Source of the DNA: a virus
Virus record (IMG/VR): IMGVR_UViG_3300035137_000026
Location: 32,001-96,000 of that record
Reading direction: 5' to 3' (one strand)
DNA length: 64,000 nucleotides
Part shown: piece after piece, positions 900 to 12,868 of the stretch
How the letters are laid out: every line of letters begins with the position of its first letter
How positions within the stretch are numbered: the stretch's first letter is position 1
The notes under the pieces: model-generated
Seen by the model: only the letters and a program-made list of their open reading frames with translations
Told to the model about the DNA's origin: nothing
The model's database searches: none
Made by a program: the position numbers and the translations under genes

Positions 900-972
900 A
901 GTCTGTGACTGGATTTGAACCAGTGTCCATCTTGATTTGCAATCAAGTGCCTTGCCGCTCGGCCACACAGAC
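900..972 (-). tRNA. tRNA-Cys(GCA), CCA not encoded
   Basis: Cloverleaf: acceptor GTCTGTG/CACAGAC, D stem GCC/GGC, anticodon arm CTTGA-TTGCAAA-TCAAG, T arm ACTGG-TTCAAAT-CCAGT, discriminator U. Confidence 0.95.
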
Positions 973-1416
973 TTGATATCTATGTGTATTTTGCTCTTTG
1001 GCAGTTACTTTCCTGTGACAGTTTGCACATAGGCAGATGCATTTGTTTATCTCTTTCTCGATTATATACCACGATTTTCGGCTGCTAATTATTTCACTAA
1101 TATTCCCCACTTTAGTGTTAGGGTCTATATGGTGAAAGTCTAGAACTAATGGATTAGTTTCTCCGCATTGAGCGCAAGGATTATGTTTAAAGAGCTGTAG
1201 TAGTTGTCGTTGTACATATAGAAGGTATTTGTGTCTGTTAGATTTAGCTCTCTTAATATACTTTGTACGATTCTTTTCGTAGTGTTGTTTGTAGGTCTTC
1301 TTGCGTAATTGCTTATAGCAGTTCTTACAGTATGAGCTACGTCTAATACCCTTTTGTTTCCAGAAAAACTCAGTTTCTGGTTTTACTTGATTGCATTTTG
1401 TACACTGTTTGTCCAT
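943..1416 (-). CDS. HNH endonuclease with N-terminal zinc finger (free-standing homing-endonuclease type)
   Basis: CTKC...CKNC zinc finger; CAQCGE...LDFHHIDP...N...CICLCANCHR HNH core. Confidence 0.88.
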   Translation of the reverse strand: MDKQCTKCNQVKPETEFFWKQKGIRRSSYCKNCYKQLRKKTYKQHYEKNRTKYIKRAKSNRHKYLLYVQRQLLQLFKHNPCAQCGETNPLVLDFHHIDPNTKVGNISEIISSRKSWYIIEKEINKCICLCANCHRKVTAKEQNTHRYQVCVAERQGT

Positions 1417-1422
1417 ATGCTA

Positions 1423-1451
1423 ATTTTAGCGATATGGACTGCAAATAGCAA
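1423..1451 (-). promoter_or_regulatory. Sigma70-type promoter for the HNH gene, probably leaderless
   Basis: TTGCTA (1451-1446), 17-nt spacer, TAAAAT (1428-1423); the A of ATG 1416 is the 7th nt after the -10 box; no SD sequence. Confidence 0.55.
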
Positions 1452-1472
1452 ATCAGTTTTGGATCTGCTCAG

Positions 1473-2033
1473 CTATGCCGACGGGTAAAGTTTGTGTTCT
1501 AGAATATATTTGAATACCTCGGGAGCCAGTAGTCTACTTATTTGTTCAATGGTAAGTGCGCTGTTTATTAGCTGTCGGACCTCCGTTGAACTGGCATCAT
1601 GCTGGTGCTGAATTATTTCTCCTGGTGGGTCTTCCACTCCTGGCCGGGTAACCCAAATTGGTGGAGCTAAACTAAGTACTTCCTCTGAAGTTTTCCAATC
1701 CTTCATTTTCCAATAGTTATCAGCTCCTAGTATAAGATTGAACTCCTTGCCCTGGTTGCCAGCCTTGAGGTACTTTAAGATTTCTACTGAGTAGGTGGAC
1801 TTGATTTCAGCTTCAGCTGTGGAGACGAGCATTTGTGGGTTCTCTTTGATCATTAAATAGCACATGGCTGCACGGTGATGGAATGAGGTGGGTTCTTTAC
1901 CGAAGGCATGTTTCCAGCATGGAAGGAACCAAACTGCATCGACAAGCTTTCGGCCAAGGACTGCTTCTGCAATCGCATAGTGTCCTAGATGTGGAGGATC
2001 GAAGGTTCCGCCGAGAATTCCTACCTTTGTCAT
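1473..2033 (-). CDS. nadD: Nicotinate-nucleotide adenylyltransferase
   Basis: GILGGTFDPPHLGH (HxGH), LILGADN, W..RPG and ASSTEVR motifs; 186 aa. Confidence 0.93.
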   Translation of the reverse strand: MTKVGILGGTFDPPHLGHYAIAEAVLGRKLVDAVWFLPCWKHAFGKEPTSFHHRAAMCYLMIKENPQMLVSTAEAEIKSTYSVEILKYLKAGNQGKEFNLILGADNYWKMKDWKTSEEVLSLAPPIWVTRPGVEDPPGEIIQHQHDASSTEVRQLINSALTIEQISRLLAPEVFKYILEHKLYPSA

Positions 2034-2046
2034 CGATTACTCCTTA

Positions 2047-2817
2047 TTATACCCTTAAGTAGTGAGGGATGCCAAGGTTCTTATGTCTATTGGCTGTGAT
2101 TAGCTTCTCGATGTATATGCGTGTTTTGGAATTATCGGTTGAGCCGCTTTCTATTACCTTGAGCCACCTATCAATCTCGTCGTATGTTATTCCGAGTTCG
2201 TTCTCGTCTGTTTGTCCAAGCCAGAGGCCTGCTGAGGGAGCCTTCTCTATTACGAATTGTGGTAGCTCAAGGATTTTAGCCATCTCGAAGACTTCTGTCT
2301 TATAGAATCCCATGATGGGCTCTATGTCACAGCCACCATCTCCAAACTTGGTGGCATATCCTAGCAAGGCCTCTGTCTTGTTGGTCGTGCCGGCTACGAG
2401 TCCATTGCATTGCCCGGCTGCTGCGTATAGAGTTAGCATGCGGAATCTTGCTTTGGTGTTTGCAGGCATTAGAGCATTTAGGTCTTCAAGTGCTCCTATA
2501 GCGTGACCGAGGCAGGCAATATCTTCTCGATAATCAGCCCACCAAGAGTTGAAGGTATTTTCGAGATCCATGGTAAAGGTCCGGATGCCTAGGCAGCTTC
2601 CAATGCTTTCTGCATCTATGGCATCTTGTAACTGGGAGTAACACGGCATAATAAGGCCAATGACATTGAGTGGCCCTAGCGCCTCTGCGCAGATTCTTGC
2701 TGTCAGGGCTGAATCAATGCCACCAGAGAGGCCGACGACGGCTTTAGTCATTCCTGCTGTTAGGAAGTATTTCTTTGTCCACTGGACTACTTTCTGTATT
2801 TCTTTTCTTAAGCTCAT
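2047..2817 (-). CDS. nadE: NH3-dependent NAD+ synthetase (no glutaminase domain)
   Basis: VVGLSGGIDS P-loop, NTKARFRMLTLY, GTTNKTE..LGYATKFGDG, KAPSAGLWLGQTDENELG. Confidence 0.95.
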   Translation of the reverse strand: MSLRKEIQKVVQWTKKYFLTAGMTKAVVGLSGGIDSALTARICAEALGPLNVIGLIMPCYSQLQDAIDAESIGSCLGIRTFTMDLENTFNSWWADYREDIACLGHAIGALEDLNALMPANTKARFRMLTLYAAAGQCNGLVAGTTNKTEALLGYATKFGDGGCDIEPIMGFYKTEVFEMAKILELPQFVIEKAPSAGLWLGQTDENELGITYDEIDRWLKVIESGSTDNSKTRIYIEKLITANRHKNLGIPHYLRV

Positions 2818-3076
2818 TCTTCATTTCGCTTTCTACGCTATTGAAAGCGTCCTTAATTGTGGTCTCTACGGTTCCAGCCATTGAGTCTAGGATAAAGTTC
2901 CAGTTATGGACAAAGACTGGATCAGAGTCATTCTCTACTGGTAGTCTGTTTCCTTTGAGTTGAGTGCAGACGAGCTGCATGCCGTCAAATAGGCCTTGAA
3001 GATACAGAGCGATCTGGTCGTGACTGAAACCTTGGCCTGACAGCTTCCTTAGGAGATTCGCAATGATTTCTTGCAT
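2744..3076 (-). CDS. Hypothetical protein between pncB and nadE
   Basis: 110-aa ORF overlapping both neighbours on the same strand. Confidence 0.55.
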   Translation of the reverse strand: MQEIIANLLRKLSGQGFSHDQIALYLQGLFDGMQLVCTQLKGNRLPVENDSDPVFVHNWNFILDSMAGTVETTIKDAFNSVESEMKNELKKRNTESSPVDKEILPNSRND

Positions 3077-4245
3077 AGTGCTATCTCTTCTTCTGTGCCA
3101 GTATGCTTGCCTTCAGTATCAGATAGCTTAACAACAGGTAGCCACTTACTCTCTCCATATGGCTTGCAATGGCTCATCTTAATAACCATATTAAGTGGCT
3201 TAACGCCTTTAATGTCATTGGTAAGGTTGGTGCCAATGCCAAATGAGCACTTGATCCCTATGTTATCACATTCTTTCTTGAGTTTTGTGGCTACTAGTGG
3301 GCTCAGACTGTCTGAGAATACAATTGTTTTGGATTCAGGGCTGATTCCTAGCTCTATATAATGGTCTTTGACTCTGTGTGCAAAGGCGAATGGGTCGCCT
3401 GAGTCATGCCGTACACCGTCGAATAGCTTGGCGTACTTGGAGCCAAATACCCTAAAGAATGACCTGCTGGTGAATGTATCAGGTAAGGTAATTCCTAGGT
3501 TTCCGTGATATACGTCAACCCAGTGCTTGAGTGCCATATGGTTTGCTTCTTGGTATCCGTACTTGGCTCCATGAAACATGAACCATTCATGTGCCTGCGT
3601 TCCAATAGGTTTGGTAGCATATTCTTGAGCTAGGTGTAGGTTGCTGGTGCCAACAAAGTTGTCTGGTGCAGTAATGGAGTGAACATGCACAATACCGGCA
3701 TGGTGTTTGGCTGAGAACCTCCTGCGAGTGCCAAAGTCAGCATATGCTATGCCAGCCTTGGTAAGATCTTGTGCCTTCATTGCGGTACGGACCACTGCTT
3801 CTTGGATTGAATCTTCATCTGCTTTGGCTGTCATCCTGAAGTACAGCTCGGAGATGACTGCCATCAGCTTCACTTCCCATAGAATTGTGCGGTACCATGG
3901 ACCTTTGATCATAACCCACAATCTACCATCTGGCATGCAGGTGGCGTTCACATCTTTGTAGTTGTATTGATAACCTCTCAGGAAATCGATGAAAACTGGG
4001 GTTAGGAACGGGCAGGCTACTTGAAGCCAAGCTGCCTCATCATATGTGAGGTGCAAGTCTCCCATCATCTCTATCTCTTCCTTTAGCCGGTTAATAAACC
4101 CTTTTGGGAATTTTGTGTTCCCCCTATTGGTAAAGTTATAAATAGCTTGAGCATGTGGATAGCACTGGCATACAGCTTGGCACATGGTCAGCTTGTAGAG
4201 GTCGTCATCCAGCATGCTTTTAATGATTGGAGTGGCCGAGCCCAT
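3049..4245 (-). CDS. pncB: Nicotinate phosphoribosyltransferase
   Basis: MLDDDLYKLTM, DFGTRRRFS, GTSN, GTQAHEW (phospho-His), RHDSGDP, FSDSL, FGIGTNLTND, VKLSDTEGK; SD AGGAGG. Confidence 0.95.
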   Translation of the reverse strand: MGSATPIIKSMLDDDLYKLTMCQAVCQCYPHAQAIYNFTNRGNTKFPKGFINRLKEEIEMMGDLHLTYDEAAWLQVACPFLTPVFIDFLRGYQYNYKDVNATCMPDGRLWVMIKGPWYRTILWEVKLMAVISELYFRMTAKADEDSIQEAVVRTAMKAQDLTKAGIAYADFGTRRRFSAKHHAGIVHVHSITAPDNFVGTSNLHLAQEYATKPIGTQAHEWFMFHGAKYGYQEANHMALKHWVDVYHGNLGITLPDTFTSRSFFRVFGSKYAKLFDGVRHDSGDPFAFAHRVKDHYIELGISPESKTIVFSDSLSPLVATKLKKECDNIGIKCSFGIGTNLTNDIKGVKPLNMVIKMSHCKPYGESKWLPVVKLSDTEGKHTGTEEEIALCKKSLRIS

Positions 4246-4254
4246 TCTTTCCTC

Positions 4255-4368: not shown

Positions 4369-4370
4369 GT

Positions 4371-4966: not shown

Positions 4967-5773
4967 TTACACCAGTACTTTCGTGGTTGTGGACAGCTTC
5001 ATCCCCTTGGCTGTCATTTCTTTAATGAAGTCGTCTTGGAGGTTCTCGAAGCCTTGGACTGGAGAAGTCCCGTCAGCCAAGAGAACCAGCTTCTCGATCA
5101 CCTTGGGGTCGCTGAATCCATCAGCGACATCCCTTACGGTGTTGGCTAGGCAATGAGAGCCGGCCTCTCCTGCGATGAGGACCATGTCGGTCTTCTCGAG
5201 AGTCTGGATGAGCCTGGTGTTCAGCTGTGTTGTAGGGTCGTTGGGATCTGGCACTTCTGCCTTGACGCCGCTGTAGTGTTCGGTGAAGATATTGCTGCCC
5301 TTGGAGACGAAATCGATGGTTTTGAACTTTTTGTCGGCCCACTTGTTGAGTGCGTCCAGCACTTCAGGAACCACGGTGGCTCCAGGGCTGCCAATGAGAC
5401 AGTGGGGAGGCCAGATGCACAGTGGGTACCGCCCACTTGCTTCCAGAGCCTCAGTATAAGCTATCATCCTGGGTGTCAGGTCTGGCTGGGTGGTGTACCA
5501 GACGGCATTTTTGATGTCGTTGGATGTGATGATGGTGAAGGGGTCGGGCTGCTGGCTGCTGGCATTCTTCCACATGGCAGGGTGCGCAACGTCGATCAGG
5601 TGGTGCTGGTCCAACGTGACGTGGATATCTTCTAGCTTGCCCCCTAGCCTAGCGATCATGTCTGCTATCCGGAGCATGTCATTCTCTGCCCCTGTGACGT
5701 AAAGATTGCCTTGTGGGTTACAGAAGTCATGCTGCGGATCGATCAGCAGCAGGTGTACTTTGGCGAATGACAT
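4967..5773 (-). CDS. pncA: Nicotinamidase (isochorismatase/cysteine hydrolase family)
   Basis: LLLIDPQHDFC (catalytic Asp), TLDQH and WPPHC (metal ligands), SKG (Lys), AGEAGSHCL (catalytic Cys); adjacent to pncB/nadD/nadE. Confidence 0.88.
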   Translation of the reverse strand: MSFAKVHLLLIDPQHDFCNPQGNLYVTGAENDMLRIADMIARLGGKLEDIHVTLDQHHLIDVAHPAMWKNASSQQPDPFTIITSNDIKNAVWYTTQPDLTPRMIAYTEALEASGRYPLCIWPPHCLIGSPGATVVPEVLDALNKWADKKFKTIDFVSKGSNIFTEHYSGVKAEVPDPNDPTTQLNTRLIQTLEKTDMVLIAGEAGSHCLANTVRDVADGFSDPKVIEKLVLLADGTSPVQGFENLQDDFIKEMTAKGMKLSTTTKVLV

Positions 5774-5782: not shown

Positions 5783-7162
5783 TTATTTTGCTTTCATATT
5801 CATGATTGGTTTTATCTGCTCAACCAGCCCGACTGTTGGAATAATAGCTTGCTGGATCTCTTCTGGGTTTTTGTATGCTTCCGGCGCTTCATCCAGTGGG
5901 ATGGCTGAGGTATAGATGCCGTTCATTGCTTTCTCGGCATCTTCTTGCTTTAGTATCTGCTTAGCTTTGGTGCGGCTCATAGCTCTACCAGCACCATGCG
6001 GAGCCGAGAAGTTCCAGGACTTTTCTGCCCATCCTGTACAGATCCAAGTACCGTCCTTCATATTGAACGGAATGATGACTTTCTCTCTGTAGGCAGCAAC
6101 GGCCCCCTTTCGGATTATGAGGTCCTTTGGGCTAATGTAGTTATGTACTGTCTCTACCTGCTCAAGTATTGATCTGCTAACCCTTTCGGTTGCAAGAAGT
6201 CTTGGTCTTAGCCTGTTCTGAACTGCTGGCTTAGGAACAATGTTGCTCAGGACATCCTGCATAATGGCAGCTCTGTTATGGGTAGCATAGCACTGGGCAA
6301 ATGCCATGTCGTATAAATAGTCATACATAGCCTTGCCCATAAGTGGTTCCAAGCCCTTCTGGCTAATGCCGCTAGTGATTCCAAGCTGTGCTCGTAGCTC
6401 TTGGATCTTCCTCTGGGTGTCTTTGGGTGATGTAGTCTTCTTGATTTGCTCAATCTGCTGCTGGTAGTTACCTTCCGTTGACTGCTTCTGCATTGCGGCG
6501 GCGAGTCTTTGGTGGTATTCGCAGACATTTTTGCCTAGCTGTCTTGAGCCGCTATGAACTATTACCCATAGAAGATCTTCGTTGGTTGATGAGATCCCTA
6601 TCTCGATGAAGTGATTCCCACCACCAAGAGTGCCAATTCCATTGAGTGCTCTTTGGAAGTCCTGTCCTATCTTGGCGCAAAGTGCTTGAAACCAAGTATG
6701 GTTGATCCTAGGTGGTTTTGGAGTGCTTGTACCAAACTTTTCACGCAACCTAATCCACAGTTGGTCCAAGCTTGATTGTGCCTCGGTGTAGAACTTGTGA
6801 CCGTCTTCGAGAGCATAGGTTCCGGTTGTATGATAATGTACTTCGAAACCGAATGGGATTCTGTCTCTGATTTGTTTATCTAGAGCGGCTAGATCCATGC
6901 CCTTCGGCTTCTGTATCTGGATACCGAGCATTCCACAGCCGATATCTACTCCAACCACGTTGGGGATAACCATCTCTGTCAGTGGCATAGTGAATCCAAT
7001 TACGGATCCTTTGCCAGTGTGGCAGTCTGGCATAATTCTGACTGGCTCAGTGAATGCCGGGTGGTTAAGCATGGTATAGATCTGACTAATACACTCTTGC
7101 TCTACATTCTCTTGCTTGGCAAAAATAATTGCCTTTGAGTATCGTCCCTGGATCTCGAACAT
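5783..7162 (-). CDS. rtcB: RNA-splicing/repair ligase RtcB (likely start MFEIQGRYS at 7162)
   Basis: MPDCH, GVDIGCGM, GTLGGGNHFIE, HSGSR, HNY, RKGA, SAPHGAGR, LDEAPEAYK: metal and guanylated-His motifs all present. Confidence 0.95.
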   Translation of the reverse strand: MFEIQGRYSKAIIFAKQENVEQECISQIYTMLNHPAFTEPVRIMPDCHTGKGSVIGFTMPLTEMVIPNVVGVDIGCGMLGIQIQKPKGMDLAALDKQIRDRIPFGFEVHYHTTGTYALEDGHKFYTEAQSSLDQLWIRLREKFGTSTPKPPRINHTWFQALCAKIGQDFQRALNGIGTLGGGNHFIEIGISSTNEDLLWVIVHSGSRQLGKNVCEYHQRLAAAMQKQSTEGNYQQQIEQIKKTTSPKDTQRKIQELRAQLGITSGISQKGLEPLMGKAMYDYLYDMAFAQCYATHNRAAIMQDVLSNIVPKPAVQNRLRPRLLATERVSRSILEQVETVHNYISPKDLIIRKGAVAAYREKVIIPFNMKDGTWICTGWAEKSWNFSAPHGAGRAMSRTKAKQILKQEDAEKAMNGIYTSAIPLDEAPEAYKNPEEIQQAIIPTVGLVEQIKPIMNMKAK

Positions 7163-7182
7163 TGCTTTATATCTCAACAGAG

Positions 7183-8028
7183 CTAAAACTCGAAGGCTGG
7201 TGGTAATGGTTCTGCGCCCTCGAAGATACACTCTACCCGGTTAGGGATACTAGTTAGCTTAGGAAACACGACCATCTCAACATCAGTTCGTTCGATTGTC
7301 ATGTTGGGGTTCTTTCGTGCATAGTGTTTGGGTGGAAGTTGTTCTATCTCTTCAGCTATGAATGGTCTTTTCCTCTTGACTCTCCTGAAGTAGGAGCCTC
7401 TCTTCTCCTGTGGAGAGTAATGGTTCCAGTTAATCCCATATTTTTGGAAGAGCATTTCCTGAAGCTCTGGTGTCTGCTTCCCTTGCATCTCCTGATGGGA
7501 GAACTTGCTTTGTGCCACTGCTAGGATGCTGTTTCTGGTGGCATCCAGCTCCCTCCAGATTAGACAGTTTACAGCCTCTGTGAGTGATGGTACCTGAAAT
7601 ACACGGCAATCGAAGGTAGCTGGCGGCTTGTGGAAGAATAGCTGTGCACGTTCGTTCATATCTGCTTTAACAGTTTTCTGTACTTCTATATTGAAGTAGG
7701 CTGTGCACATGCTTGCTAGCACACTATTCATCTTCTGGAGCTTGCCATCGAAGAAGATTTGGCTCTCTATATCGTCGCTGTAGAATATAAGGGTGATTTC
7801 ATCAGATTGGGTGTATCCAATAACAGCGCATGTCTCTTGTACGAGTCTCTTTGTGGTGATCTGCATCATCTCCATGAACTTGCTATCGAATGGGCGGTCT
7901 AGGCCTTTAGTCCATGTGTGGAATGCTCTCCCGTCGAGGCGGGCAATTATAGGCAGAAGTGGAATTGCTTTCATTGCCCAGTTCTTCTCGTAGAGCTTTA
8001 TTCTATCGCTAAGTGTTATCTTATCCAT
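7183..8028 (-). CDS. Thg1-like 3'-5' polymerase / tRNA-His guanylyltransferase family (likely start MDKITL at 8028)
   Basis: IIARLDGRAFHTWTK, YTQSDEITL, FFDGKLQKMNSVLAS, FDCRVF, WRELDATRNSI. Confidence 0.92.
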   Translation of the reverse strand: MDKITLSDRIKLYEKNWAMKAIPLLPIIARLDGRAFHTWTKGLDRPFDSKFMEMMQITTKRLVQETCAVIGYTQSDEITLIFYSDDIESQIFFDGKLQKMNSVLASMCTAYFNIEVQKTVKADMNERAQLFFHKPPATFDCRVFQVPSLTEAVNCLIWRELDATRNSILAVAQSKFSHQEMQGKQTPELQEMLFQKYGINWNHYSPQEKRGSYFRRVKRKRPFIAEEIEQLPPKHYARKNPNMTIERTDVEMVVFPKLTSIPNRVECIFEGAEPLPPAFEF

Positions 8029-8221
8029 TTGATTTATCTTTGCAGGTGTGTTGGGTTGCATCTTCTTCGAATAGTCGCCAGACTGGTCTATATCTACTAC
8101 CAATATTTCTCCAGTGTGGTGCGGTTTGCTGGCAGTGCCGGCATGTCTTAGTTCCGTTGGGGCCATATAGCATTTCTTCTATCATGCTGTTGTCATTTAT
8201 TCAGTCGGCCATATCTTCTAT
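8021..8221 (-). pseudogene. Decayed small zinc-finger gene (ATA at the start position, in-frame TGA 8201-8203)
   Basis: GGAGG 8 nt before ATA; (I)EDMAD*INDNSMIEEMLYGPNGTKTCRHC...W...VWRLFEEDATQHTC...*, ending over the Thg1 start. Confidence 0.55.
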
Positions 8222-8226
8222 TGGAG

Positions 8227-8721
8227 TTACCTCCAACTGGTGTCGCCCTCTAGGGTATAGACGACAACCTCTACATCTTGGGCAAGGAGGGTTTCTTTGA
8301 TAAGGCCCTCTATGACCTGCCATGTGCCGCCTGCTAGCCCGCAACCAATACGGGGAATATGTACACTGGCTTCTTGTTGCTTAGCATGTGTGGCTAGCTT
8401 GTTAAGGCACTGGCGGACCCTGTCGTATCTGATTGGAGGGATGTTTCCGTAGGGCTTGGTGTCGTGTTGTCCGATCATGTTGCAGACGTAAGTGTCGTCC
8501 TCAACCTGGACAAGTTGTGTCATGCCGAGAGTAAAATCTGGCATGTCATCTGCACCTTTTGCCCAGTGGCGATAACTCTTCTCGGGAAGCTCCCACTTGT
8601 TTGAAAGGGCAACCACGAAGCCACGACCCCATCTGCCTTTGTTGTTGCAGATGTGTGCAATAATTTTGTTTCCGTCGCCTTGTGGCTCGAGAGTATCACC
8701 TGTTACGTACTTGATCGTCAT
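8227..8721 (-). CDS. Macrodomain ADP-ribosylhydrolase, SCO6735-like (TARG1/DarG class)
   Basis: IKYVTGD, IIAHICNNKGRWGRGFVVAL, YVCNMIGQH, SVHIPRIGCGLAGGTW; closely matches my recollection of Streptomyces SCO6735, including its Gln motif. Confidence 0.88.
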   Translation of the reverse strand: MTIKYVTGDTLEPQGDGNKIIAHICNNKGRWGRGFVVALSNKWELPEKSYRHWAKGADDMPDFTLGMTQLVQVEDDTYVCNMIGQHDTKPYGNIPPIRYDRVRQCLNKLATHAKQQEASVHIPRIGCGLAGGTWQVIEGLIKETLLAQDVEVVVYTLEGDTSWR

Positions 8722-10028
8722 TAACTGATCTCTTCTGGGTCGACGTATTCGTCGTTATTCTTAGCAATACCTTCTAGCTCACAGAACCAGAAGCTCTTAT
8801 ATTTGTAGTGAGTCTCTACATTAGGAGCTTCTACTCTGAGAACGATACCTTCTCTGATATGGTCAGTATCGAGTAGAGAATTCCCTTGGGATAGTTCCTC
8901 ACATAGTTCTAGTAACTTACTACTATCACCATCATAAATGAATGGTTCTTTAATCTGTGGAACTGTGTCTAGTCCTAGCTCTCTACAACGTGTAACCATC
9001 TGTGTCCATGGTAATTCAGTTACCTCTCTACCTGGACCAGTTCTGGTGATTCTGTAGACTGCAATCTTGTATGTTCCTGGGTCGCAACCATATTTGTACA
9101 CCATCTTGGTTCCATACTTCTTCTTGAGTTTGGAGTCTTTGATGTTGTGCGCACCCATAATCAGGGCACCATCTTCAGAGTACCCTACAATTTCGTAGTA
9201 TAGGGTTTCTCCATCTTGAAGTCCTATATCCCTGATTTTATTATGGATAGTTGCTCTGAATTGTTTACCAGAGTAGTATCCTCCGTCGTCCACTTGTTTA
9301 GGGTCCAGGACCACACGTCGGGAACCAGTGACGTACTTGTACTCGCTGGTCTTAAATTTCTCTCCAAATATTTTATTCCAGGTTCTCTTGAACCAACCGA
9401 GTTCCTTAACCTGACGAAGCTTTCCTGTGCGTGCAGAAGTACCATGTATCTTCTCAGAGATTGAGAGTATTGCTCCAGCTGGGATGAGGTCTACCATCAT
9501 CCTAAGCTTCTGTGTATTGAAGTGCTCACGGAAGTCTGGGAATGATTCCTTTAGGATTCTCTTTGAGCTGCGGCGATCCTTATTTGTCCCACTCCCCATC
9601 ATCTTTCTAGTAGCTGGGGTGTAGTACTTATTACAGATTGGCTTACCATTTAGCTCATCGATTAGGTCACCTTTGGTGAGCCTCTCTATATCAAAGCCAG
9701 TCCACTTGAGCATCTTTAAAGGAACCCAGTAGCCCATAGACATTTCTTTACGAAACCTTTGTGCTCTCACACGTCGGTTGTCATCAAAGAATCCAGCCTT
9801 AGCTTCTGGGTTGGCATTTAGGTGTGTGTGCCTATGTAAGTTATTTCGCTGGCACATCTCCAAGCTTAGCTGTCCGTCTTCAGGAAAGAAGATGCCTAGC
9901 GTGCCTTCTACTATATCTGTAGAGATGATAACTTGATGCCCAGCGGCAGTACCCAGCATAAGCCTATCGGCATTAGAGTGAGATCTTATGTTCACGATAG
10001 GTGTAATAATTGCTTTATAGTTACTCAT
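8721..10028 (-). CDS. ATP-dependent RNA ligase (Rnl2/DRB0094-like) with N-terminal OB-like module
   Basis: N-terminal I..HSNADRL; nucleotidyltransferase motifs EKIHGTSAR, YYEIVG, YRI, REGIVLR, YKYKSF. Confidence 0.85.
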   Translation of the reverse strand: MSNYKAIITPIVNIRSHSNADRLMLGTAAGHQVIISTDIVEGTLGIFFPEDGQLSLEMCQRNNLHRHTHLNANPEAKAGFFDDNRRVRAQRFRKEMSMGYWVPLKMLKWTGFDIERLTKGDLIDELNGKPICNKYYTPATRKMMGSGTNKDRRSSKRILKESFPDFREHFNTQKLRMMVDLIPAGAILSISEKIHGTSARTGKLRQVKELGWFKRTWNKIFGEKFKTSEYKYVTGSRRVVLDPKQVDDGGYYSGKQFRATIHNKIRDIGLQDGETLYYEIVGYSEDGALIMGAHNIKDSKLKKKYGTKMVYKYGCDPGTYKIAVYRITRTGPGREVTELPWTQMVTRCRELGLDTVPQIKEPFIYDGDSSKLLELCEELSQGNSLLDTDHIREGIVLRVEAPNVETHYKYKSFWFCELEGIAKNNDEYVDPEEIS

Positions 10029-10073
10029 CTGTAAGTACCTCTAGTAGTTATTAGATCTTGCCATACGAACCTC

Positions 10074-10346
10074 TTAGTCTTCTACTGGCATCCACTTTCT
10101 AATGGTGACCTCTTTTTCTTCTACCTCTACGATTTCACTATCGTATTGGTACTCATAGTCCGTGAAGTAACTTCCTGATCTACTGGCCGATACTTTCCAG
10201 CAAGTACCATCTGCGTCTCTGAAAATTTTGGTACCAAATGAGTATTTTCCCTCATCAGTGAAACCGATATCCTTGACTAATTTATAATCAGAATGCTCTT
10301 CGTCAAAGATGCTTTCTACTTCTTCTTCTGTAAGTTTCTTCTTCAT
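10074..10346 (-). CDS. Hypothetical acidic protein
   Basis: GGAG SD then MKKKLTEEE; the track start at 10364 lies inside the tRNA 3' end. Confidence 0.7.
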   Translation of the reverse strand: MKKKLTEEEVESIFDEEHSDYKLVKDIGFTDEGKYSFGTKIFRDADGTCWKVSASRSGSYFTDYEYQYDSEIVEVEEKEVTIRKWMPVED

Positions 10347-10358
10347 TCTATTGCTCCT

Positions 10359-10444
10359 TGGCACATCCGGCAGGACTCGAACCTGCAGTGCTTTTCAGCG
10401 CCGGATTAGAAGTCCGGTGGGTTATCCGGTTACCCTACGGATGC
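10359..10444 (-). tRNA. tRNA-Arg(TCT) with a 14-nt variable arm and encoded CCA
   Basis: GCATCCG/CGGATGT acceptor, GGGT/ACCC D stem with A after GG, CCGGA-CTTCTAA-TCCGG, variable CGCTGAAAAGCACT, GCAGG-TTCGAGT-CCTGC, G73-CCA. Confidence 0.93.
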
Positions 10445-10453
10445 ATTATCTGA

Positions 10454-10552
10454 TTACTTTGATCTGTGAGCTTTCTCTTTCTTTACATTTCCTCCAGCTT
10501 CAAACTTGTCTGTATTGATGTCGAACTTTAGTTCTACTTTTGGATCAGACAT
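10454..10552 (-). CDS. 32-aa small protein MSDPKVELKFDINTDKFEAGGNVKKEKAHRSK
   Basis: GAGG SD; overlaps the upstream ORF end and stops just before the tRNA. Confidence 0.45.
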   Translation of the reverse strand: MSDPKVELKFDINTDKFEAGGNVKKEKAHRSK

Positions 10553-10688
10553 TCTGTCCTCTATGTGATGTAAGCATATCTAACAGATTCATCTTGCTAG
10601 GTAACTCGAATAGGTCCCAGTTACCAGACACCTTACAGGTGGCAAGAAACATACCAGTGTTTCTGTCTTAGAATAAGTATAGATGCAT
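10545..10688 (-). pseudogene. Small gene with in-frame TAA at codon 7 (10668-10670)
   Basis: MHLYLF*DRNTGMFLATCKVSGNWDLFELPSKMNLLDMLTSHRGQNV*; start and end both overlap neighbours. Confidence 0.45.
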
Positions 10689-11119
10689 CACTTACCTAAT
10701 ATCTTTCCTAAGCATGGTATACAGAAATACCAACTATGCCATTTACCTTCAAAGATTGCTTTATCTACTCATGCTTTTTCTCCAGGATGGATTAAATGTC
10801 TTACCTTTCCTATCTTAGAGAGATGACGGATATGATTCTTCTTTACTCTTACAATGCGACTAGACTTTAGCCTTAGGTCTGTATCATAGTCGCCATCAAA
10901 CAGATCTACTGTCAGTAGGTCTTTATAGTATTCGAGTTTTAGCTCTCTGGATTCCTTGTTAACTTTATACCAGCTATTATCTTCATATGCTCTTTCAGCC
11001 AGTTCTGCATAAGGAGCTAGCCTTTTACGAACATATGGCTCATGTATCATAAGGGTATGTTCTGGAGGAATTCCATGAATATATGTGAAGAGTTCTCTTA
11101 TCAGGTTGGTAAAGCTCAT
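10688..11119 (-). pseudogene. Hypothetical gene (start MSFTNL at 11119) with in-frame TGA at 10769-10771
   Basis: Continues *VDKAIFEGKWHSWYFCIPCLGKILGK* and ends in a TGATG overlap with the next start. Confidence 0.5.
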
Positions 11120-11129
11120 TATCTTACCT

Positions 11130-11478
11130 TGGTGGACCCATGTGGCATCGAACCGCAGTCCAAACACTATCCATGTATAGATCGTTACATGCTTAGTCTA
11201 CTCTATCCAACCATCTACCAGTGGATATCATAAATGGAGGTTTTGTCTTTTGTGTTTCGCCGCTGATATAAAGACAAACTCTGGCGGCTAGTTACATTAA
11301 ATTGCGCCTCGTCCAAATATGTAATCTCATTGGATTTGGCGGCTAGTTTGCTTACGCAGTGGCTAGCATAGGTTGTACATCGTTGCCGATTGTACTTTGG
11401 TTACTTTCTAATCTGGTACAACCATCCAGGGCATGCACTATAAGCTTCATTAGTACCCGTCGAAGCTATGTCAAGCCC
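11130..11478 (-). ncRNA. ssrA: tmRNA, 349 nt; predicted tag (A)GNDVQPMLATA at 11387-11352
   Basis: 5' GGGCTTGACATAGCTTCGACGGG...GTGCATGCC; 3' GACTAAGCATGTA...GGACTGCGGTTCGATGCCACATGGGTCCACCA; G3-U70 pair and A73-CCA (Ala identity); resume context TACAATC-GGC AAC GAT. Confidence 0.92.
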
Positions 11479-11479
11479 A

Positions 11480-11743
11480 TTATTGGTGTACTTTGACCAA
11501 CCTTAGATCATTATCATGTTCTACCCTATCGTGCAACGTTTTTACGTTTTGGAATAGTTGCCGAAGGTGTTCCATGCAGTGTTTCGCCCATTTGTCTGAC
11601 TCGGAGAGATATTTGTCTTCTGTGTTTGGGATAGGCTGTGGATACATATTCAAACTACTCTGGGCACTAATGATTTCACACATTATGCCTTGGAGAGCAG
11701 TTGCTAAGGTATCATCCTTATTTATTGTTAGCGGCTTTGACAT
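11480..11743 (-). CDS. Hypothetical protein (start MSKPLT at 11743)
   Basis: ORF ends 2 nt before the tmRNA 5' end. Confidence 0.6.
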   Translation of the reverse strand: MSKPLTINKDDTLATALQGIMCEIISAQSSLNMYPQPIPNTEDKYLSESDKWAKHCMEHLRQLFQNVKTLHDRVEHDNDLRLVKVHQ

Positions 11744-11745
11744 TA

Positions 11746-12153
11746 CTATTCTTTCCCATTGACTTTTAGCCATATCTCAGCATTACTAGGAATGGGCGTA
11801 ACTCCTTGTTTCCTCAGGCGAAACTCCCATCCTTTGCCACTAGCACATCTAAGTGGATAATGGTGTGGCTACTTGTCTTCTAGAACCTTTGGGATTATGT
11901 ATACTGTGATGTCTTTTCCATGCTTCTCCCATGTTCTGAACTCGAACTTGATGGTATTCTGGCGGCTATTCAGATTAGTCGTGGTACATCCGTGGGCGAT
12001 TCCATTGCTGTAGAGTATGGCTCCACCACCAAGGAGGGGATCGCCATAATTATTTCGCATGTGGAGCTAACCGCAAATGTAGTCATTGTTGGCTGTTGTA
12101 GTCAAGCTAACTGTTGATAATACCAACAGAATTGTGGCAATTGTTCTCTTCAT
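11746..12153 (-). pseudogene. Secreted-protein gene with two in-frame TAG codons (12067-12069 and 11869-11871)
   Basis: Signal peptide MKRTIATILLVLSTVSLTTTA; one frame throughout: ...ICG*LHMRNNYG...VLEDK*PHHYPL...AEIWLKVNGKE*, ending 2 nt before the next ATG. Confidence 0.6.
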
Positions 12154-12373
12154 GGTGTCTTCTGTTTTGTGGGAAATATTACCCTGTTTTTCCCACAAGA
12201 CTGTGGGAAGGGTAAAGGTGCTGGTTTTTGTCCCTAACACGTTCCCTGGTCATCTTTGGAGGGTGGCCGAGTGGAAAGCACCCTGTGACCTGTATGGGGG
12301 TTGTTAACCTCACCGTCCGTGCTCCGCAACTGGATTTGCTAGGGTCGCTAGGATAAACCAGCAAACCTAATTA

Positions 12374-12677
12374 GTCTGCAGTTTTAGGTCGTACAGTGGA
12401 CCGGGAGCAACACCAGAATGGTAATATGGCCCTCTACCATGGCAGCTATTTAGCGTCAGCTCCGAGACATGGAGGAATAGGCCTGCCCTTAGAGTACTGT
12501 GTGTTGTGCTCCAGGCTTGTCAGTGTGTCAGGATTCCATTACTCTTCTAAGGTCCCAAACCAACGGCGGACCAACGTGAGAAGAGGTAAGATCCTGAATG
12601 GGTTAGCGTATTCCTCCGTCTGTGAATCTGTTCTTAACCATGTATTCCGACCTATGTGGTCTTATGAACTAGCAGAC
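12374..12677. ncRNA. Unidentified multi-helix structured RNA (minus strand by context)
   Basis: Nested complementary segments: 12374-79/12672-77, 12380-83/12667-70, 12385-91/12648-54, 12465-79/12609-21, 12529-34/12591-96, 12542-48/12579-85, 12551-55/12568-72, 12418-23/12435-40; no convincing ORF. Confidence 0.6.
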
Positions 12678-12681
12678 AGAT

Positions 12682-12757
12682 TGAAAGGGGTTGGATTTGA
12701 ACCAACGTTTCCGGGCATCACACCGTGGGTGTCTTAGGCCGCTAGATGACCCTTTCA
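12682..12757 (-). pseudogene. tRNA-like element (Asp/Glu-type D arm) with an unpaired anticodon arm
   Basis: Acceptor GAAAGGG/CCCTTTC, D region TCATCTAGCGGCCTAAGAC, T arm GTTGG-TTCAAAT-CCAAC; anticodon stem does not pair. Confidence 0.65.
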
Positions 12758-12868
12758 GTTAGGCCAGTTTGACCCCTGACCCAAGGGTTCTCCAAGGAGT
12801 TGGTGGGATGGCTGGGGGCAAGCCGTTTGTCTCCCACTAACTAGAAACATTCTAGTTATAACTAATAA

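What the first reader, a model, noticed from the sequence alone, without database searches (positions are those of the whole stretch)
900..12760. A single co-oriented rescue island coupling NAD+ supply, ADP-ribose reversal, tRNA repair, tRNA supply and ribosome rescue
Seen: within about 12 kb on one strand, NAD salvage (4 genes), a macrodomain, 3 RNA-repair enzymes, 2 tRNAs, a tmRNA and an unknown structured RNA, with small ORFs between them. Inference: each element reverses one outcome of abortive-infection systems (NAD loss, ADP-ribosylation, tRNA cleavage, stalled ribosomes on cleaved mRNA), so the island looks like a repair-based rather than inhibitor-based anti-defence system. The interspersed small ORFs are candidate additional anti-defence genes.
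Basis: inference. Interest (0 to 1): 0.7.

Follow-up and report, generated by a model that had tools for sequence, protein, structure and literature searches.

The report
Phage NAD-salvage and RNA-repair gene cluster
An uncultured 198-kb phage carries, side by side, a four-enzyme pathway that rebuilds NAD+ from nicotinamide and a four-gene RNA-end repair operon, plus tRNAs and a tmRNA; the genes are real and kept together in close relatives, but this kind of kit is already described for large phages and is not shown to be one integrated anti-defence system.

Summary
On the minus strand of window 900-12760 lie tRNA-Cys, an HNH endonuclease, NadD-like, NadE, PncB, a divergent PncA-like nicotinamidase, RtcB, a Thg1-like polymerase, an SCO6735/TARG1-type macrodomain, an ATP-dependent RNA ligase, tRNA-Arg(UCU), a tmRNA, an odd tRNA-like element and a conserved non-coding stretch.

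The boundaries are arbitrary. About 80 kb is co-oriented. Twenty-one tRNAs, Ro60, Tpt1, a CCA-adding enzyme, a second ligase, RlaP and a PARP-like ADP-ribosyltransferase share the same arm.

Three close relatives keep the order ligase-macro-Thg1-RtcB-[variable slot]-PncB-small ORF-NadE-NadD. Relatives at 43-57% ligase identity often keep NAD genes within 10 kb of the ligase, but in changing order. Beyond that the parts assort independently.

Two of the "candidate anti-defence" small ORFs are relics of a kinase/phosphatase cassette that is intact in a relative. Another small gene carries two in-frame TAGs.

The repair-based counter-defence reading is plausible but inferred. It was proposed for jumbo phages in 2021, and pncB-nadD-nadE clusters in phages were reported in 2024. 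This scan had already noted the same parts on this genome. I rate this a new variant of a known kind, of moderate interest.

The parts
899..972 (-). tRNA-Cys(GCA)
   Evidence: ARAGORN; Rfam tRNA 64.8 bits.
943..1416 (-). HNH (homing-type) endonuclease. Its 3' end overlaps the tRNA-Cys gene.
   Evidence: phrog_2255 E 2.4e-28 and other HNH PHROGs. No Pfam hit.
1473..2033 (-). NadD-like nicotinate-nucleotide adenylyltransferase
   Evidence: PF01467 E 2e-13. TIGR00482 scores 111 bits, just under its cut-off of 112.45. 50% identical homologs lie next to NadE in L027, L128 and L023.
2047..2817 (-). NadE, single-domain (ammonia-type) NAD+ synthase
   Evidence: PF02540 E 4.9e-66. TIGR00552 227 bits against a cut-off of 63.65.
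2744..3076 (-). orf110: small helical protein always found directly after PncB in the closer relatives; function unknown
   Evidence: Homologs directly after PncB in L004, L023 and L005, with invariant G16, G28, G32, D52-P53, H57, W59-N60. ORFs of the same size sit there in the P0002 and P0003 contigs. Model pLDDT 76, all helical. No Pfam, PHROG or PDB fold match.
3049..4245 (-). PncB, nicotinate phosphoribosyltransferase
   Evidence: PF04095 and PF17767. NF003704 442 bits against a cut-off of 379; TIGR01514 407 bits. Homologs in only 15 of 50,697 phage records.
4246..4966 (-). Decayed variable slot. orf83 (4437-4688) and orf66 (4721-4921) are relics of a Ser/Thr kinase and a PP2C-like phosphatase. 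A stub of a 250-aa protein gene (no Pfam hit on record) also remains.
   Evidence: tblastn and blastn against the intact L004 genes at 16124-19181. The kinase has an internal deletion of about 315 aa, has lost its N-terminus and carries a nonsense codon at 4439. Only the C-terminal 53 aa of the PP2C-like gene remain.
4967..5773 (-). Divergent 268-aa nicotinamidase-like (PncA-like) protein
   Evidence: Weak hits to M. tuberculosis PncA 3pl1 (E 8e-6) and yeast Pnc1 2h0r; the aligned stretches keep the Asp, Lys (SKG), Cys (SHC) and WPPHC motifs. PRK11609 E 9e-7 but far below its cut-off. 76% identical to the L004 265-aa protein and 55% to L105.
5783..7231 (-). RtcB RNA ligase, which joins 3'-P or 2',3'>P ends to 5'-OH ends. 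The true start is probably near 7165.
   Evidence: PF01139 E 2.2e-60. 70% identical to the L004 ortholog, aligned from 7162.
7183..8166 (-). Thg1-like 3'-5' nucleotidyltransferase
   Evidence: PF04446 102 bits against a cut-off of 29.2. The C-terminal domain is below its cut-off. Homologs annotated in jumbo phages.
8227..8721 (-). Macrodomain of the TARG1/ALC1/SCO6735/BT1257 type. Its start codon overlaps the ligase stop codon.
   Evidence: PDB 2afc E 3e-53, 2fg1 E 1e-52, 5e3b (SCO6735) E 9e-45. The DarG model scores only 33 bits against a cut-off of 250. Coordinates.
8721..10028 (-). ATP-dependent RNA ligase with an N-terminal OB-like domain (Rnl5-like, weak assignment)
   Evidence: PF09414 33.3 bits against a cut-off of 27. 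phrog_968 E 2e-55. Invariant K193-x-H-G-T-S motif in 40 homologs. Weak profile hits to the N-terminal domain of Naegleria Rnl.
10074..10364 (-). Small protein of the T4 Y04K type (probable start ATG at 10346)
   Evidence: phrog_18166 E 1e-15. PF26835 Phage_T4_Y04K is recorded for the 96-aa and 90-aa genes at the corresponding place (before PcfJ and the ligase) in the P0002 and P0003 contigs; their homology to this ORF was not tested.
10359..10444 (-). tRNA-Arg(UCU) with an enlarged variable region
   Evidence: ARAGORN. Rfam 58.4 bits, with an insert of about 10 nt in the variable region. A tRNA-Arg also lies upstream of the ligase in L004, L023, L024, L027 and L061.
10769..11167 (-). Lineage-specific ORF of unknown function (probable start ATG at 11118, just after the tmRNA)
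   Evidence: No Pfam or PHROG hit. No homolog in L004, where a different 149-aa ORF sits.
11130..11478 (-). tmRNA, with predicted tag GNDVQPMLATA
   Evidence: Rfam RF00023 71.7 bits against a cut-off of 47, full length. The L004 ortholog scores 104 bits with tag GEEIQPMLEAA in the same frame. A G3-U pair in the acceptor stem is read from the sequence.
11480..11773 (-). ORF of 97 aa, unknown function
   Evidence: No family hit. No tblastn match in relatives.
11760..12153 (-). Gene for a small signal-peptide protein, interrupted by two in-frame TAG codons (at 12069 and 11871)
   Evidence: Collinear with the intact 135-aa L004 gene at 7116-7523. Both TAGs align with Trp, and similarity continues past them.
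12221..12473 (-). Conserved non-coding stretch, 3' block (candidate RNA, identity unresolved)
   Evidence: 70% identical to L004 6440-6663 with long invariant runs. 5 of 53 predicted pairs are compensatory. No Rfam hit at E<=1.
12682..12756 (-). tRNA-like element with a non-canonical anticodon arm
   Evidence: Rfam tRNA 34.9 bits, with 15 nt where the model has 13. Not called by ARAGORN.
12751..12850 (-). Conserved non-coding stretch, 5' block
   Evidence: 78% identical to L004 6278-6377.

Best explanation
**What it is.** The region is a slice of the accessory arm of an uncultured 198-kb tailed phage. Two operon-like enzyme modules sit next to each other there, and they have stayed together in the phage's close kin.

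**Module 1: deamidating NAD+ salvage.**
- A PncA-like enzyme turns nicotinamide into nicotinate.
- PncB makes NaMN.
- NadD makes NaAD.
- NadE makes NAD+.

**Module 2: RNA-end repair.**
- RtcB seals 3'-P or 2',3'>P ends to 5'-OH ends.
- An Rnl5-like ATP ligase seals 3'-OH/5'-P ends.
- A Thg1-like enzyme refills 5' ends.
- A TARG1/SCO6735-type macrodomain, translationally coupled to the ligase, removes ADP-ribose adducts or ADP-ribose by-products.

tRNAs and a tmRNA flank the two modules.

**Most likely role (inferred).** They keep the NAD+ pool and the translation RNAs usable in an infected cell whose NAD+, tRNAs and mRNAs are being destroyed. The main cause would be host abortive-infection effectors. 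The NAD+ would also feed the phage's own NAD+ users, Tpt1 and a PARP-like transferase.

**What it is not.** It is a juxtaposition of modules in a plastic region, not one integrated, co-evolving system. Most of the small ORFs between the modules are relics or lineage-specific fillers.

**Shown versus inferred.** Shown: gene identities, synteny, and gene decay. Inferred: all enzyme activities, co-transcription, and any link to defence systems.
For: - Gene identities.
- Tight packing: NadD and NadE are 13 nt apart; orf110 overlaps both PncB and NadE; the ligase stop overlaps the macrodomain start.
- The order ligase-macro-Thg1-RtcB-[slot]-PncB-small ORF-NadE-(PncA)-NadD is kept in three relatives at 78-84% ligase identity, with tmRNA and tRNA-Arg kept in L004.
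- NAD genes lie within 10 kb of the ligase in 8 of the 11 loci that are at least 12 kb long and have at least 43% ligase identity, on either side of the ligase.
- Thg1-PncB-NadE-NadD-(Ro60) is adjacent in L027 and L128; macro and NadE are adjacent in L145, L147 and L172.
- The tmRNA tag frame is conserved between the window and L004.
- All recognisable RNA, NAD and ADP-ribose genes sit in one arm, 180.8 kb through the origin to 44.9 kb.
- Published frameworks and precedents: PMC7824862 (jumbo-phage RNA repair, tRNA provisioning, NAD+ synthesis, Macro/NADAR, KptA-2H-Macro); PMC11662467 (pncB-nadD-nadE clusters in jumbo phages); 10.1101/2024.02.11.579819 and PMC13464706 (phage NAD+ reconstitution defeats NADase defences); PMC10264068 (phage tRNAs against tRNA-targeting defences); PMC9411070 and PMC11833690 (SCO6735 activities; a ligase-PARG-PNK operon).
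Against: - No experiment, and no host is known.
- No promoter or terminator signal defines a unit: 22 promoter-like sites against 24 expected, and 19 terminator-like sites against 15 expected.
- The PncA-like protein and NadD fall below the curated NCBIfam cut-offs.
- No polynucleotide kinase of the AAA_33 type was found to heal ends for the ATP ligase.
- The slot between the modules differs in every relative.
- In five distant relatives the parts occur singly or 24-29 kb from the ligase.
- Synteny among close relatives may simply be shared descent.
- The phage's own Tpt1 and PARP-like enzyme give a defence-independent use for NAD+ and the macrodomain.
Confidence: 0.55

Rival explanations
1. 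This is one discrete, co-regulated anti-defence island. Every element, including the small ORFs, reverses a specific abortive-infection outcome.
For: Functional themes map neatly onto known defence outputs. The cluster is compact and conserved in order in three relatives. Ligase-NAD linkage persists through rearrangements.
Against: - The limits are arbitrary within a roughly 60-kb arm of like genes.
- orf66 and orf83 are pseudogene relics, and another small gene has two in-frame stops.
- One small ORF is a homing endonuclease.
- The components assort independently in distant relatives.
- No shared regulatory signal was found.
Confidence: 0.12
2. A phage-autonomous NAD+/ADP-ribose economy. NAD+ is made mainly to feed the phage's own NAD+-consuming enzymes. 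These are a PARP1/2-like ADP-ribosyltransferase used for host takeover, and Tpt1, which removes 2'-phosphates during RNA ligation. The macrodomain is the matching eraser or by-product cleaner (ADP-ribose 1''-phosphate, or ADP-ribosylated ends). RNA repair, tRNAs and the tmRNA sustain translation after host shut-off rather than countering defence.
For: - Tpt1/KptA at genome 13073-13678, E 8e-51.
- A PARP-like protein at genome 188386-189585: Pfam E 5e-27, and PARP1/2 PDB hits at E 1e-14.
- The macrodomain is of the TARG1/ALC1 type that acts on PARP-type products (PMC9411070).
- The macrodomain is embedded in the RNA ligase operon. This resembles the D. radiodurans ligase-PARG-PNK operon (PMC11833690) and the KptA-2H-Macro scheme (PMC7824862).
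- 'NAD-jumbo phages' pair NAD+ synthesis with many NAD+ consumers (PMC11662467).
Against: - Tpt1 and PARP lie 20-40 kb from the cluster.
- Relatives that keep PncB/NadE/NadD (G001, G002) show no PARP or Tpt1 in their records, though these are only 63-73% complete.
- No NAD+-dependent DNA ligase is present.
- Stoichiometric NAD+ use by Tpt1 is tiny compared with a cellular pool (established biochemistry; inference).
Confidence: 0.2
3. Neutral accretion. The genes are neighbours only because this arm is the phage's dumping ground for horizontally acquired accessory genes, seeded by tRNAs and homing endonucleases. There is no functional coupling between the modules.
For: - Endonucleases are present: HNH in the window, and HNH and Endo VII in a relative.
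- The slot is variable.
- Genes are decaying.
- Content varies among relatives.
- The upstream neighbours are unannotatable ORFans.
Against: - RNA-repair and NAD genes recur together after rearrangement in several diverged lineages (L023, L027, L128, L105; macro-NadE in L145, L147 and L172).
- PncB is otherwise found in only 15 of 50,697 phage records.
- Overlapping start and stop codons within each module.
Confidence: 0.13

Closest known systems
Jumbo-phage RNA-repair, tRNA-provisioning and NAD+-centred conflict systems (Iyer, Anantharaman, Krishnan, Burroughs, Aravind 2021, PMC7824862)
   Same: The component list matches: RtcB, ATP-grasp RNA ligases, Thg1, CCA-adding enzyme, Ro/TROVE, KptA with Macro/2H, many tRNAs, and phage NAD+ synthesis. 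The reading also matches: repair of the translation apparatus after host self-attack, and countering NAD+ restriction.
   Different: There the systems are described separately across genomes, and the NAD+ route is NAMPT/NMNAT-type. Here a deamidating four-step route sits directly beside the RNA-repair operon in conserved order, in a phage just under 200 kb, together with a tmRNA.
'NAD-jumbo phages' with Preiss-Handler gene clusters (Microbiome 2024, PMC11662467)
   Same: pncB, nadD and nadE are clustered on a phage genome. The phage also carries NAD+-consuming enzymes.
   Different: That paper's text shows no PncA step and no link to RNA repair. The genome here also adds a divergent nicotinamidase and a conserved small ORF after PncB.
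Experimentally shown phage NAD+ reconstitution pathways NARP1, NARP2 and NARP3 (10.1101/2024.02.11.579819; PMC13464706)
   Same: It would work like them: rebuilding NAD+ from the products of NADase defence effectors, in particular nicotinamide.
   Different: The enzymes differ: NARP1 uses Adps and Namat, NARP2 uses Nampt and Nmnat, NARP3 uses PnuC and a NadR-like enzyme. Here the route goes through nicotinate and needs four steps and more ATP. It is untested.
T4 Pnkp/Rnl1 repair of PrrC-cleaved tRNA-Lys (from my own knowledge; mentioned in PMC7824862)
   Same: Phage enzymes reseal tRNA cut by a host anticodon nuclease.
   Different: No T4-type polynucleotide kinase was found. Sealing would rely on RtcB, which needs no end healing, and on a different ligase family.
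Bacterial rsr(Ro60)-Y RNA-rtcB RNA repair operons (from my own knowledge; reviewed in ref. 202 of PMC7824862)
   Same: Ro60 and RtcB lie in one neighbourhood. Ro60 is about 2 kb beyond the NAD genes here and in the P0003 contig.
   Different: Here NAD genes, tRNAs and an endonuclease lie between them, and there is no RtcR regulator.
SCO6735 / BT1257 / TARG1-ALC1-type macrodomains and the D. radiodurans DRB0100-0099-0098 ligase-PARG-kinase operon (PMC9411070, PMC11833690)
   Same: The macrodomain belongs to the SCO6735 sequence family. A hydrolase of ADP-ribose adducts is encoded directly after a polynucleotide ligase.
   Different: The Deinococcus hydrolase is a PARG, not a TARG1-type macrodomain. 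The substrate of the phage protein is unknown.

Membership tests
Deamidating (PncA + Preiss-Handler) NAD+ salvage pathway | Nicotinate phosphoribosyltransferase (PncB) | tested here: met
   NF003704 442 bits (cut-off 379) and TIGR01514 407 bits. Pfam NAPRTase and NAPRTase_N.
Deamidating (PncA + Preiss-Handler) NAD+ salvage pathway | NAD+ synthase (NadE) | tested here: met
   TIGR00552 227 bits against a cut-off of 63.65. PF02540 E 5e-66.
Deamidating (PncA + Preiss-Handler) NAD+ salvage pathway | Nicotinate-nucleotide adenylyltransferase (NadD) | tested here: inconclusive
   TIGR00482 111 bits against a cut-off of 112.45. All the best NCBIfam hits are NadD models. PF01467 passes. NaMN versus NMN preference cannot be tested from sequence.
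Deamidating (PncA + Preiss-Handler) NAD+ salvage pathway | Nicotinamidase (PncA) with the Asp-Lys-Cys triad and metal site | tested here: inconclusive
   The PRK11609 model scores 28.9 bits against a cut-off of 174, and Pfam Isochorismatase is below its cut-off. Alignment to PDB 3pl1 and 2h0r keeps the Asp, SKG Lys, SHC Cys and WPPHC motifs. The protein has about 80 extra residues. Relatives P0002 and P0003 carry a canonical 184-186-aa PncA instead.
NARP2 (Nampt + Nmnat phage NAD+ reconstitution) | Nicotinamide phosphoribosyltransferase (NAMPT) as the first enzyme | tested here: not met
   The phosphoribosyltransferase matches nicotinate-specific PncB models above their cut-offs. Every NCBIfam model reported at E<=0.001 is a nicotinate phosphoribosyltransferase.
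NARP1 (Adps + Namat) | A PRPS-like ADP-ribose pyrophosphokinase and Namat | not tested
   No targeted search was made. The Pfam survey of ORFs of at least 90 aa listed no PRPS-like family, but only the top families are shown.
RtcB RNA ligase | Full-length match to the RtcB family model | tested here: met
   PF01139 205.5 bits, covering 1-425 of 426 positions.
Thg1 / Thg1-like protein (TLP) | Thg1 catalytic (palm) domain and the Thg1 C-terminal domain | tested here: inconclusive
   The N-terminal domain scores 102 bits against a cut-off of 29.2. The C-terminal domain scores 23.9 against 26.3. The protein has an N-terminal extension of about 46 aa not seen in L004.
TARG1/ALC1/SCO6735-type macrodomain | Sequence membership in the family, over the whole domain | tested here: met
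   2afc E 3e-53, 2fg1 E 1e-52, 5e3b E 9e-45, over residues 1-161.
DarG antitoxin | DarG-type macrodomain plus the C-terminal DarT-binding domain (about 338 aa) | tested here: not met
   NF048014 33 bits against a cut-off of 250. The protein is 164 aa, macrodomain only.
Rnl5 (DraRnl/NgrRnl) RNA ligases | N-terminal OB domain followed by an adenylyltransferase domain with the KxxG motif | tested here: inconclusive
   TIGR02306 21.8 bits against a cut-off of 151. The profile hits the Naegleria Rnl N-terminal domain at E 7e-4 only. PF09414 passes. The Lys-x-His-Gly motif is invariant.
tmRNA | tRNA-like domain with a G-U pair in the acceptor stem, a tag reading frame and a full-length covariance-model match | tested here: met
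   RF00023 71.7 bits against a cut-off of 47, positions 1-374. The tag frame is homologous to that of L004. ARAGORN does not call the window copy.
T4-type tRNA repair (Pnkp + Rnl1) | Polynucleotide 5'-kinase/3'-phosphatase | tested here: not met
   No AAA_33 kinase in the genome. A metallophosphoesterase next to a second ligase (genome 9605-11590) could supply phosphatase activity.

The most novel reading that the evidence does not exclude
The ligase-macrodomain-Thg1-RtcB operon is a repair pathway for ADP-ribosylated as well as cut RNA. The macrodomain would strip ADP-ribose from RNA ends or bases before resealing. That would be a phage answer to RNA-ADP-ribosylating defences such as CmdTAC, or to Tpt1-like toxins. 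It would be selected to stay next to a fourth, deamidating phage NAD+ reconstitution route (PncA-PncB-NadD-NadE plus the conserved small protein orf110), because both undo damage from NAD+-consuming immunity.
Probability: 0.15. Interest if true: 0.75.

Novelty: new variant of a known kind. Interest (0 to 1): 0.4.

Why it matters
If the two modules work as inferred, this phage lineage offers two things.

- A compact, clonable test case for counter-defence by repair. This includes an untested four-step route from nicotinamide to NAD+, distinct from NARP1-3.
- A macrodomain wired into an RNA ligase operon, whose substrate could link ADP-ribosylation to RNA repair.

The comparative result also has practical use: conserved cores, a variable slot between them, and decaying cargo. 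It shows where accessory genes are swapped in this lineage. It also warns against reading every small ORF in such regions as an anti-defence gene.

The concept itself, and the pncB-nadD-nadE cluster in phages, are already in the literature. The gain is therefore incremental.

Tried and rejected
- **Megablast against phages.** The 11.9-kb region gave no match in 50,697 phage records.
- **The search for related loci with the Thg1-like protein alone.** No relatives in viral contigs.
- **Exact-pattern scans of viral contigs with two conserved blocks of the non-coding stretch.** There were 14 hits, all chance; none aligns by blastn.
- **Identity of the non-coding stretch.**
  - Rfam at E<=1 finds nothing besides the tmRNA and tRNAs.
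  - The MFE z-score, computed on the L004 homolog only, is -0.2.
  - The two-sequence consensus fold gives only 5 compensatory pairs.
  - The identity is left unresolved. RNase P RNA and group I intron were considered from memory, but no motif or model supports either.
- **Promoter and terminator scan.** No enrichment over shuffles.
- **orf110.** No Pfam, PHROG or NCBIfam hit. The Atlas gives only generic helical neighbours. Foldseek against the PDB has no hit at E<=0.001.
- **Complex prediction of orf110 with PncB.** Not run, because gene adjacency alone did not justify it.
- **Upstream ORFs 12869-27947.** No Pfam or PHROG family, so the upstream boundary cannot be given a function.
- **Whole-record searches of the metagenome loci.** Not possible for L004, L005, L007 or L008.
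- **The P0002 and P0003 contigs.** The DNA was not retrievable; only gene tables were.
- **Stop-codon recoding as the explanation for the in-frame stops.** Rejected as a general explanation: TAG aligns with Trp twice but with Glu once, TAA aligns with Glu once, and all the enzymes are intact under table 11.

Full report
**Setting.** The window is bases 32001-96000 of a single 197,730-bp virus record with a 127-bp terminal overlap. CheckV rates it 100% complete, with direct terminal repeats. Megablast finds no near relative among 50,697 phage records. Gene calls and AT skew show that everything from about window 28,800 down through the genome origin to about 178 kb is on the minus strand. That is a block of some 80 kb. 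Co-orientation of the 12-kb stretch therefore carries no information.

**Check of the observation.** All genes below are on the minus strand, listed in the direction of transcription.

| Window coordinates | Element |
|---|---|
| 12682-12756 | tRNA-like element; Rfam 34.9 bits, not called by ARAGORN, non-canonical anticodon arm |
| 11760-12153 | broken small gene |
| 11480-11773 | ORF97 |
| 11130-11478 | tmRNA, 71.7 bits |
| 10769-11167 | lineage-specific ORF |
| 10359-10444 | tRNA-Arg(UCU) |
| 10074-10364 | Y04K-like small protein |
| 8721-10028 | ATP-dependent RNA ligase |
| 8227-8721 | macrodomain |
| 7183-8166 | Thg1-like enzyme |
| 5783-7231 | RtcB |
| 4967-5773 | 268-aa nicotinamidase-like protein |
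| 4246-4966 | 720-nt decayed slot |
| 3049-4245 | PncB |
| 2744-3076 | orf110 |
| 2047-2817 | NadE |
| 1473-2033 | NadD-like |
| 943-1416 | HNH endonuclease |
| 899-972 | tRNA-Cys |

- Pfam does not see the macrodomain. It matches BT1257 (2afc, 2fg1) and SCO6735 (5e3b) at E 1e-45 to 1e-53.
- PncB passes NCBI's curated cut-off as a nicotinate, not nicotinamide, phosphoribosyltransferase. NadE passes. NadD misses its cut-off by 1.5 bits. The PncA-like protein is far below its cut-off.
- The PncA-like protein nevertheless keeps the catalytic Asp, Lys and Cys and the WPPHC motif when aligned to M. tuberculosis PncA and yeast Pnc1.
- The tmRNA has a G3-U pair in its acceptor stem. Its tag frame, GNDVQPMLATA, is homologous to GEEIQPMLEAA in the relative L004.

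**The wider arm.**
- ARAGORN finds 21 tRNAs, all on the minus strand, from genome 195.6 kb through the origin to 42.4 kb.
- The same arm holds these genes (genome coordinates):
  - CCA-adding enzyme, 796-2295
  - CYTH protein, 2698-3180
  - a second ATP ligase, 9605-10726
  - metallophosphoesterase, 10727-11590
  - Tpt1/KptA, 13073-13678
  - methyltransferase, 21611-22264
  - Ro60, 29555-31195
  - beyond the origin: RlaP (185143-186117), a PARP1/2-like ADP-ribosyltransferase (188386-189585) and a second cytidylyltransferase-like protein (180851-181285)
- A Pfam survey of ORFs of at least 90 aa in the rest of the genome (45-180 kb) listed capsid, portal, baseplate, DnaE, primase/helicase, RNR, ThyX, TK and RecA among its hits. 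It listed no further RNA-repair, NAD or ADP-ribose genes. Five ORFs that span locus boundaries were not scanned, and one search printed only 25 of its 32 families.
- No NAD+-dependent DNA ligase, NADAR or AAA_33 kinase is present.
- The finding is thus a slice of a roughly 60-kb accessory arm, and its limits are not natural boundaries. Upstream of 12,760 the ORFs have no recognisable family.

**Relatives.**
- A protein search with the ligase found homologs at 84%, 83% and 78% identity, on contigs of 198, 19 and 109 kb.
- Their gene tables and the DNA of L004 show one shared order:
  1. tmRNA and tRNA-Arg (checked in L004)
  2. Y04K-like gene (P0002 and P0003 contigs only; not seen in L004)
  3. 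PcfJ-like gene, absent from the window
  4. ligase
  5. 0-2 small ORFs or an Endo VII gene
  6. macrodomain (63.6% identical in L004; inferred from size and position in the other two)
  7. Thg1
  8. RtcB
  9. variable cassette
  10. PncB
  11. a 91-98-aa ORF
  12. NadE
  13. canonical PncA, in two of the three
  14. NadD
  15. Ro60
- The cassette between RtcB and PncB differs in each genome. Two relatives have CxxCxxCC plus a radical SAM enzyme. L004 has a 168-aa protein, the 265-aa PncA-like protein, a 250-aa protein with no Pfam hit on record, a PP2C-like phosphatase (faint Pfam hit) and a Ser/Thr kinase.
- I then anchored on the ligase in 160 further loci from metagenomes and IMG/VR and asked which window proteins lie within about 10 kb:
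  - NAD genes accompany the ligase in L004, L023, L005, L024, L007, L027, L128 and L105 (ligase identity 43-77%). They lie upstream in some and downstream in others.
  - L027 and L128 show Thg1-PncB-NadE-NadD-(Ro60).
  - Three or four distant phages (33-36% identity) show the macrodomain adjacent to NadE, with Thg1 nearby.
  - About 90 loci below 43% identity show almost nothing.
- In five larger IMG/VR records, RtcB occurs only once, 24 kb from the ligase. PncB occurs in two. Thg1 occurs in two, once 29 kb from the ligase.
- PncB homologs occur in only 15 of 50,697 phage records. In the huge phages that have both PncB and RtcB or Thg1, the genes are more than 100 kb apart.
- **Conclusion on relatives.** The arrangement is conserved within a clade. 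A looser RNA-repair/NAD linkage recurs in its wider family. The parts are modular and are gained and lost separately.

**The small ORFs.**
- orf66 and orf83 align to the C-terminus of the L004 PP2C-like protein and to two separated pieces of its kinase. The kinase here has lost its N-terminus and about 315 internal residues, and carries a nonsense codon. The stub of the neighbouring 250-aa gene ends in a stop. These are relics.
- The frame 12153-11760 is collinear with an intact 135-aa signal-peptide protein of L004. It has two in-frame TAGs, both opposite Trp, and similarity continues beyond them.
- A fourth in-frame stop lies in an ORF at 17230. All the enzymes are intact.
- orf110 is different. 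It follows PncB directly in L004, L023 and L005, and ORFs of the same size follow PncB in the two contigs without DNA. It has a set of invariant residues and folds as a small helical protein. No family or fold match was found.
- The ORF between the tmRNA and tRNA-Arg is replaced by an unrelated one in L004.

**The non-coding stretch.** Windows 12850-12751 and 12473-12221 are 70-78% identical to L004 6278-6377 and 6440-6663, with long invariant runs. In the window they are separated by about 280 nt that include the tRNA-like element. The L004 homolog, the only copy folded alone, is no more stable than shuffles. Covariation from two sequences is thin, and Rfam is silent. It is a conserved non-coding element of unknown kind.

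**Mechanism.**
- Established enzymology of the families gives the route nicotinamide to nicotinate (PncA), to NaMN (PncB), to NaAD (NadD), to NAD+ (NadE).
- RtcB seals 2',3'-cyclic-P or 3'-P ends to 5'-OH ends without healing. The ATP ligase seals 3'-OH/5'-P ends. Thg1-like enzymes rebuild tRNA 5' ends. tmRNA frees ribosomes stalled on broken mRNA.
- Tight packing and stop/start overlaps suggest two operon-like units.
- The macrodomain is translationally coupled to the ligase and always lies between the ligase and Thg1. This argues that it works on nucleic-acid ends, or on ADP-ribose by-products of repair.
- SCO6735, the nearest studied relative, cleaves thymidine-linked ADP-ribose on DNA. It is reported as inactive on 5'-phospho-ADP-ribosylated ends in one passage of PMC11833690 and as active on phosphate-end marks in its discussion. 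The substrate here is therefore open (PMC9411070, PMC11833690).
- The counter-defence reading rests on precedent:
  - phage NAD+ reconstitution defeats NADase immunity (10.1101/2024.02.11.579819; PMC13464706);
  - phage tRNAs and RNA repair counter tRNA nucleases (PMC10264068; PMC7824862);
  - orphan antitoxin-like NADAR and macrodomain enzymes counter DarTG (PMC11825919; PMC13309987).
- The main rival is that NAD+ and the macrodomain serve the phage's own Tpt1 and PARP-like enzyme. This is consistent with 'NAD-jumbo phages' (PMC11662467) and with the KptA-2H-Macro scheme (PMC7824862). However, G001 and G002 keep PncB, G001 also shows NadE and NadD at the locus, and neither record shows PARP or Tpt1, although the records are incomplete.

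**Novelty and verdict.**
- The idea of repair-type counter-defence in large phages, with this very parts list, was published in 2021. pncB-nadD-nadE clusters in phages were published in 2024.
- Other first-stage notes of this scan had already listed the NAD pathway, the RNA repair kit, the macrodomain and the 44-kb tRNA arm on this same genome.
  - the conserved juxtaposition of a deamidating, PncA-including route with a ligase-macro-Thg1-RtcB operon;
  - the recurrent but rearranging RNA-repair/NAD linkage in the family;
  - the conserved small partner of PncB;
  - the variable slot with decaying cargo;
  - the PARP-like NAD+ consumer elsewhere in the arm.
I class it as a new variant of a known kind, with interest 0.4.

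Noticed in passing
window 12069, 11871, 4439, 17230 (minus strand): In-frame stop codons sit in accessory genes whose L004 orthologs are intact. Two TAGs lie opposite Trp in one 135-aa signal-peptide protein, with similarity continuing downstream. One TAG and one TAA lie opposite Glu. All enzymes in the region are intact. This could be recent nonsense decay, G-to-A-type mutation or read-through; it is unresolved.
   Followed up: partly
L003:8386-9585 (genome 188386-189585, minus strand): The phage encodes a 399-aa protein with a PARP1/2-like catalytic domain (Pfam E 5e-27; PDB PARP1/2 E 1e-14). It is an NAD+-consuming ADP-ribosyltransferase in the same arm as the macrodomain and the NAD+ pathway.
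   Followed up: partly
L003:5143-6117 and L003:851-1285 (genome 185143-186117 and 180851-181285): An RlaP (RNA-ligase-associated Pol-beta nucleotidyltransferase) and a second cytidylyltransferase-like protein lie far from the cluster but in the same minus-strand arm.
   Followed up: partly
L004:943-1446: The 78% relative carries a NADAR-domain gene a few kb upstream of its tmRNA. The window's genome has no NADAR.
   Followed up: no
L005:11543-15056; L005:8744-9718: In a 56% relative, the space between the ligase and PncB holds a ThiS-like/ThiF-like (ubiquitin-like activation) cassette with two unknown proteins, and a Gad2-like gene precedes the ligase. This is further evidence that the neighbourhood is a cargo slot.
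   Followed up: no
L145, L147/L148, L172 (about +8 to +10.5 kb from the ligase): In distant phages (ligase identity 33-36%) a macrodomain gene lies directly next to NadE, with Thg1 3-5 kb on the other side of the ligase. This is a recurrent macro-NAD link outside the clade.
   Followed up: partly
window 11130-11478; L004:7539-7880: The tmRNA tags begin with Gly (GNDVQPMLATA, GEEIQPMLEAA). Together with the macrodomain's close similarity to Bacteroides BT1257 over its whole length and RtcB's best phage hits in Bacteroides phages, this hints at a Bacteroidota host. The hint is weak and rests partly on memory of tag patterns.
   Followed up: no
window 10359-10444: tRNA-Arg(UCU) has an insert of about 10 nt in the variable region, in an otherwise good tRNA (Rfam 58.4 bits).
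   Followed up: partly
window 10029-10073 compared with L004:8721-9857: A PcfJ-like gene of about 378 aa precedes the ligase in all three close relatives. It is absent from the window's genome.
   Followed up: partly
window 13386-15539 and 15738-16379: A 717-aa and a 213-aa ORFan upstream of the cluster are conserved in L004 (58-67% identity) and L023 (34-39%). They have no Pfam or PHROG family.
   Followed up: partly
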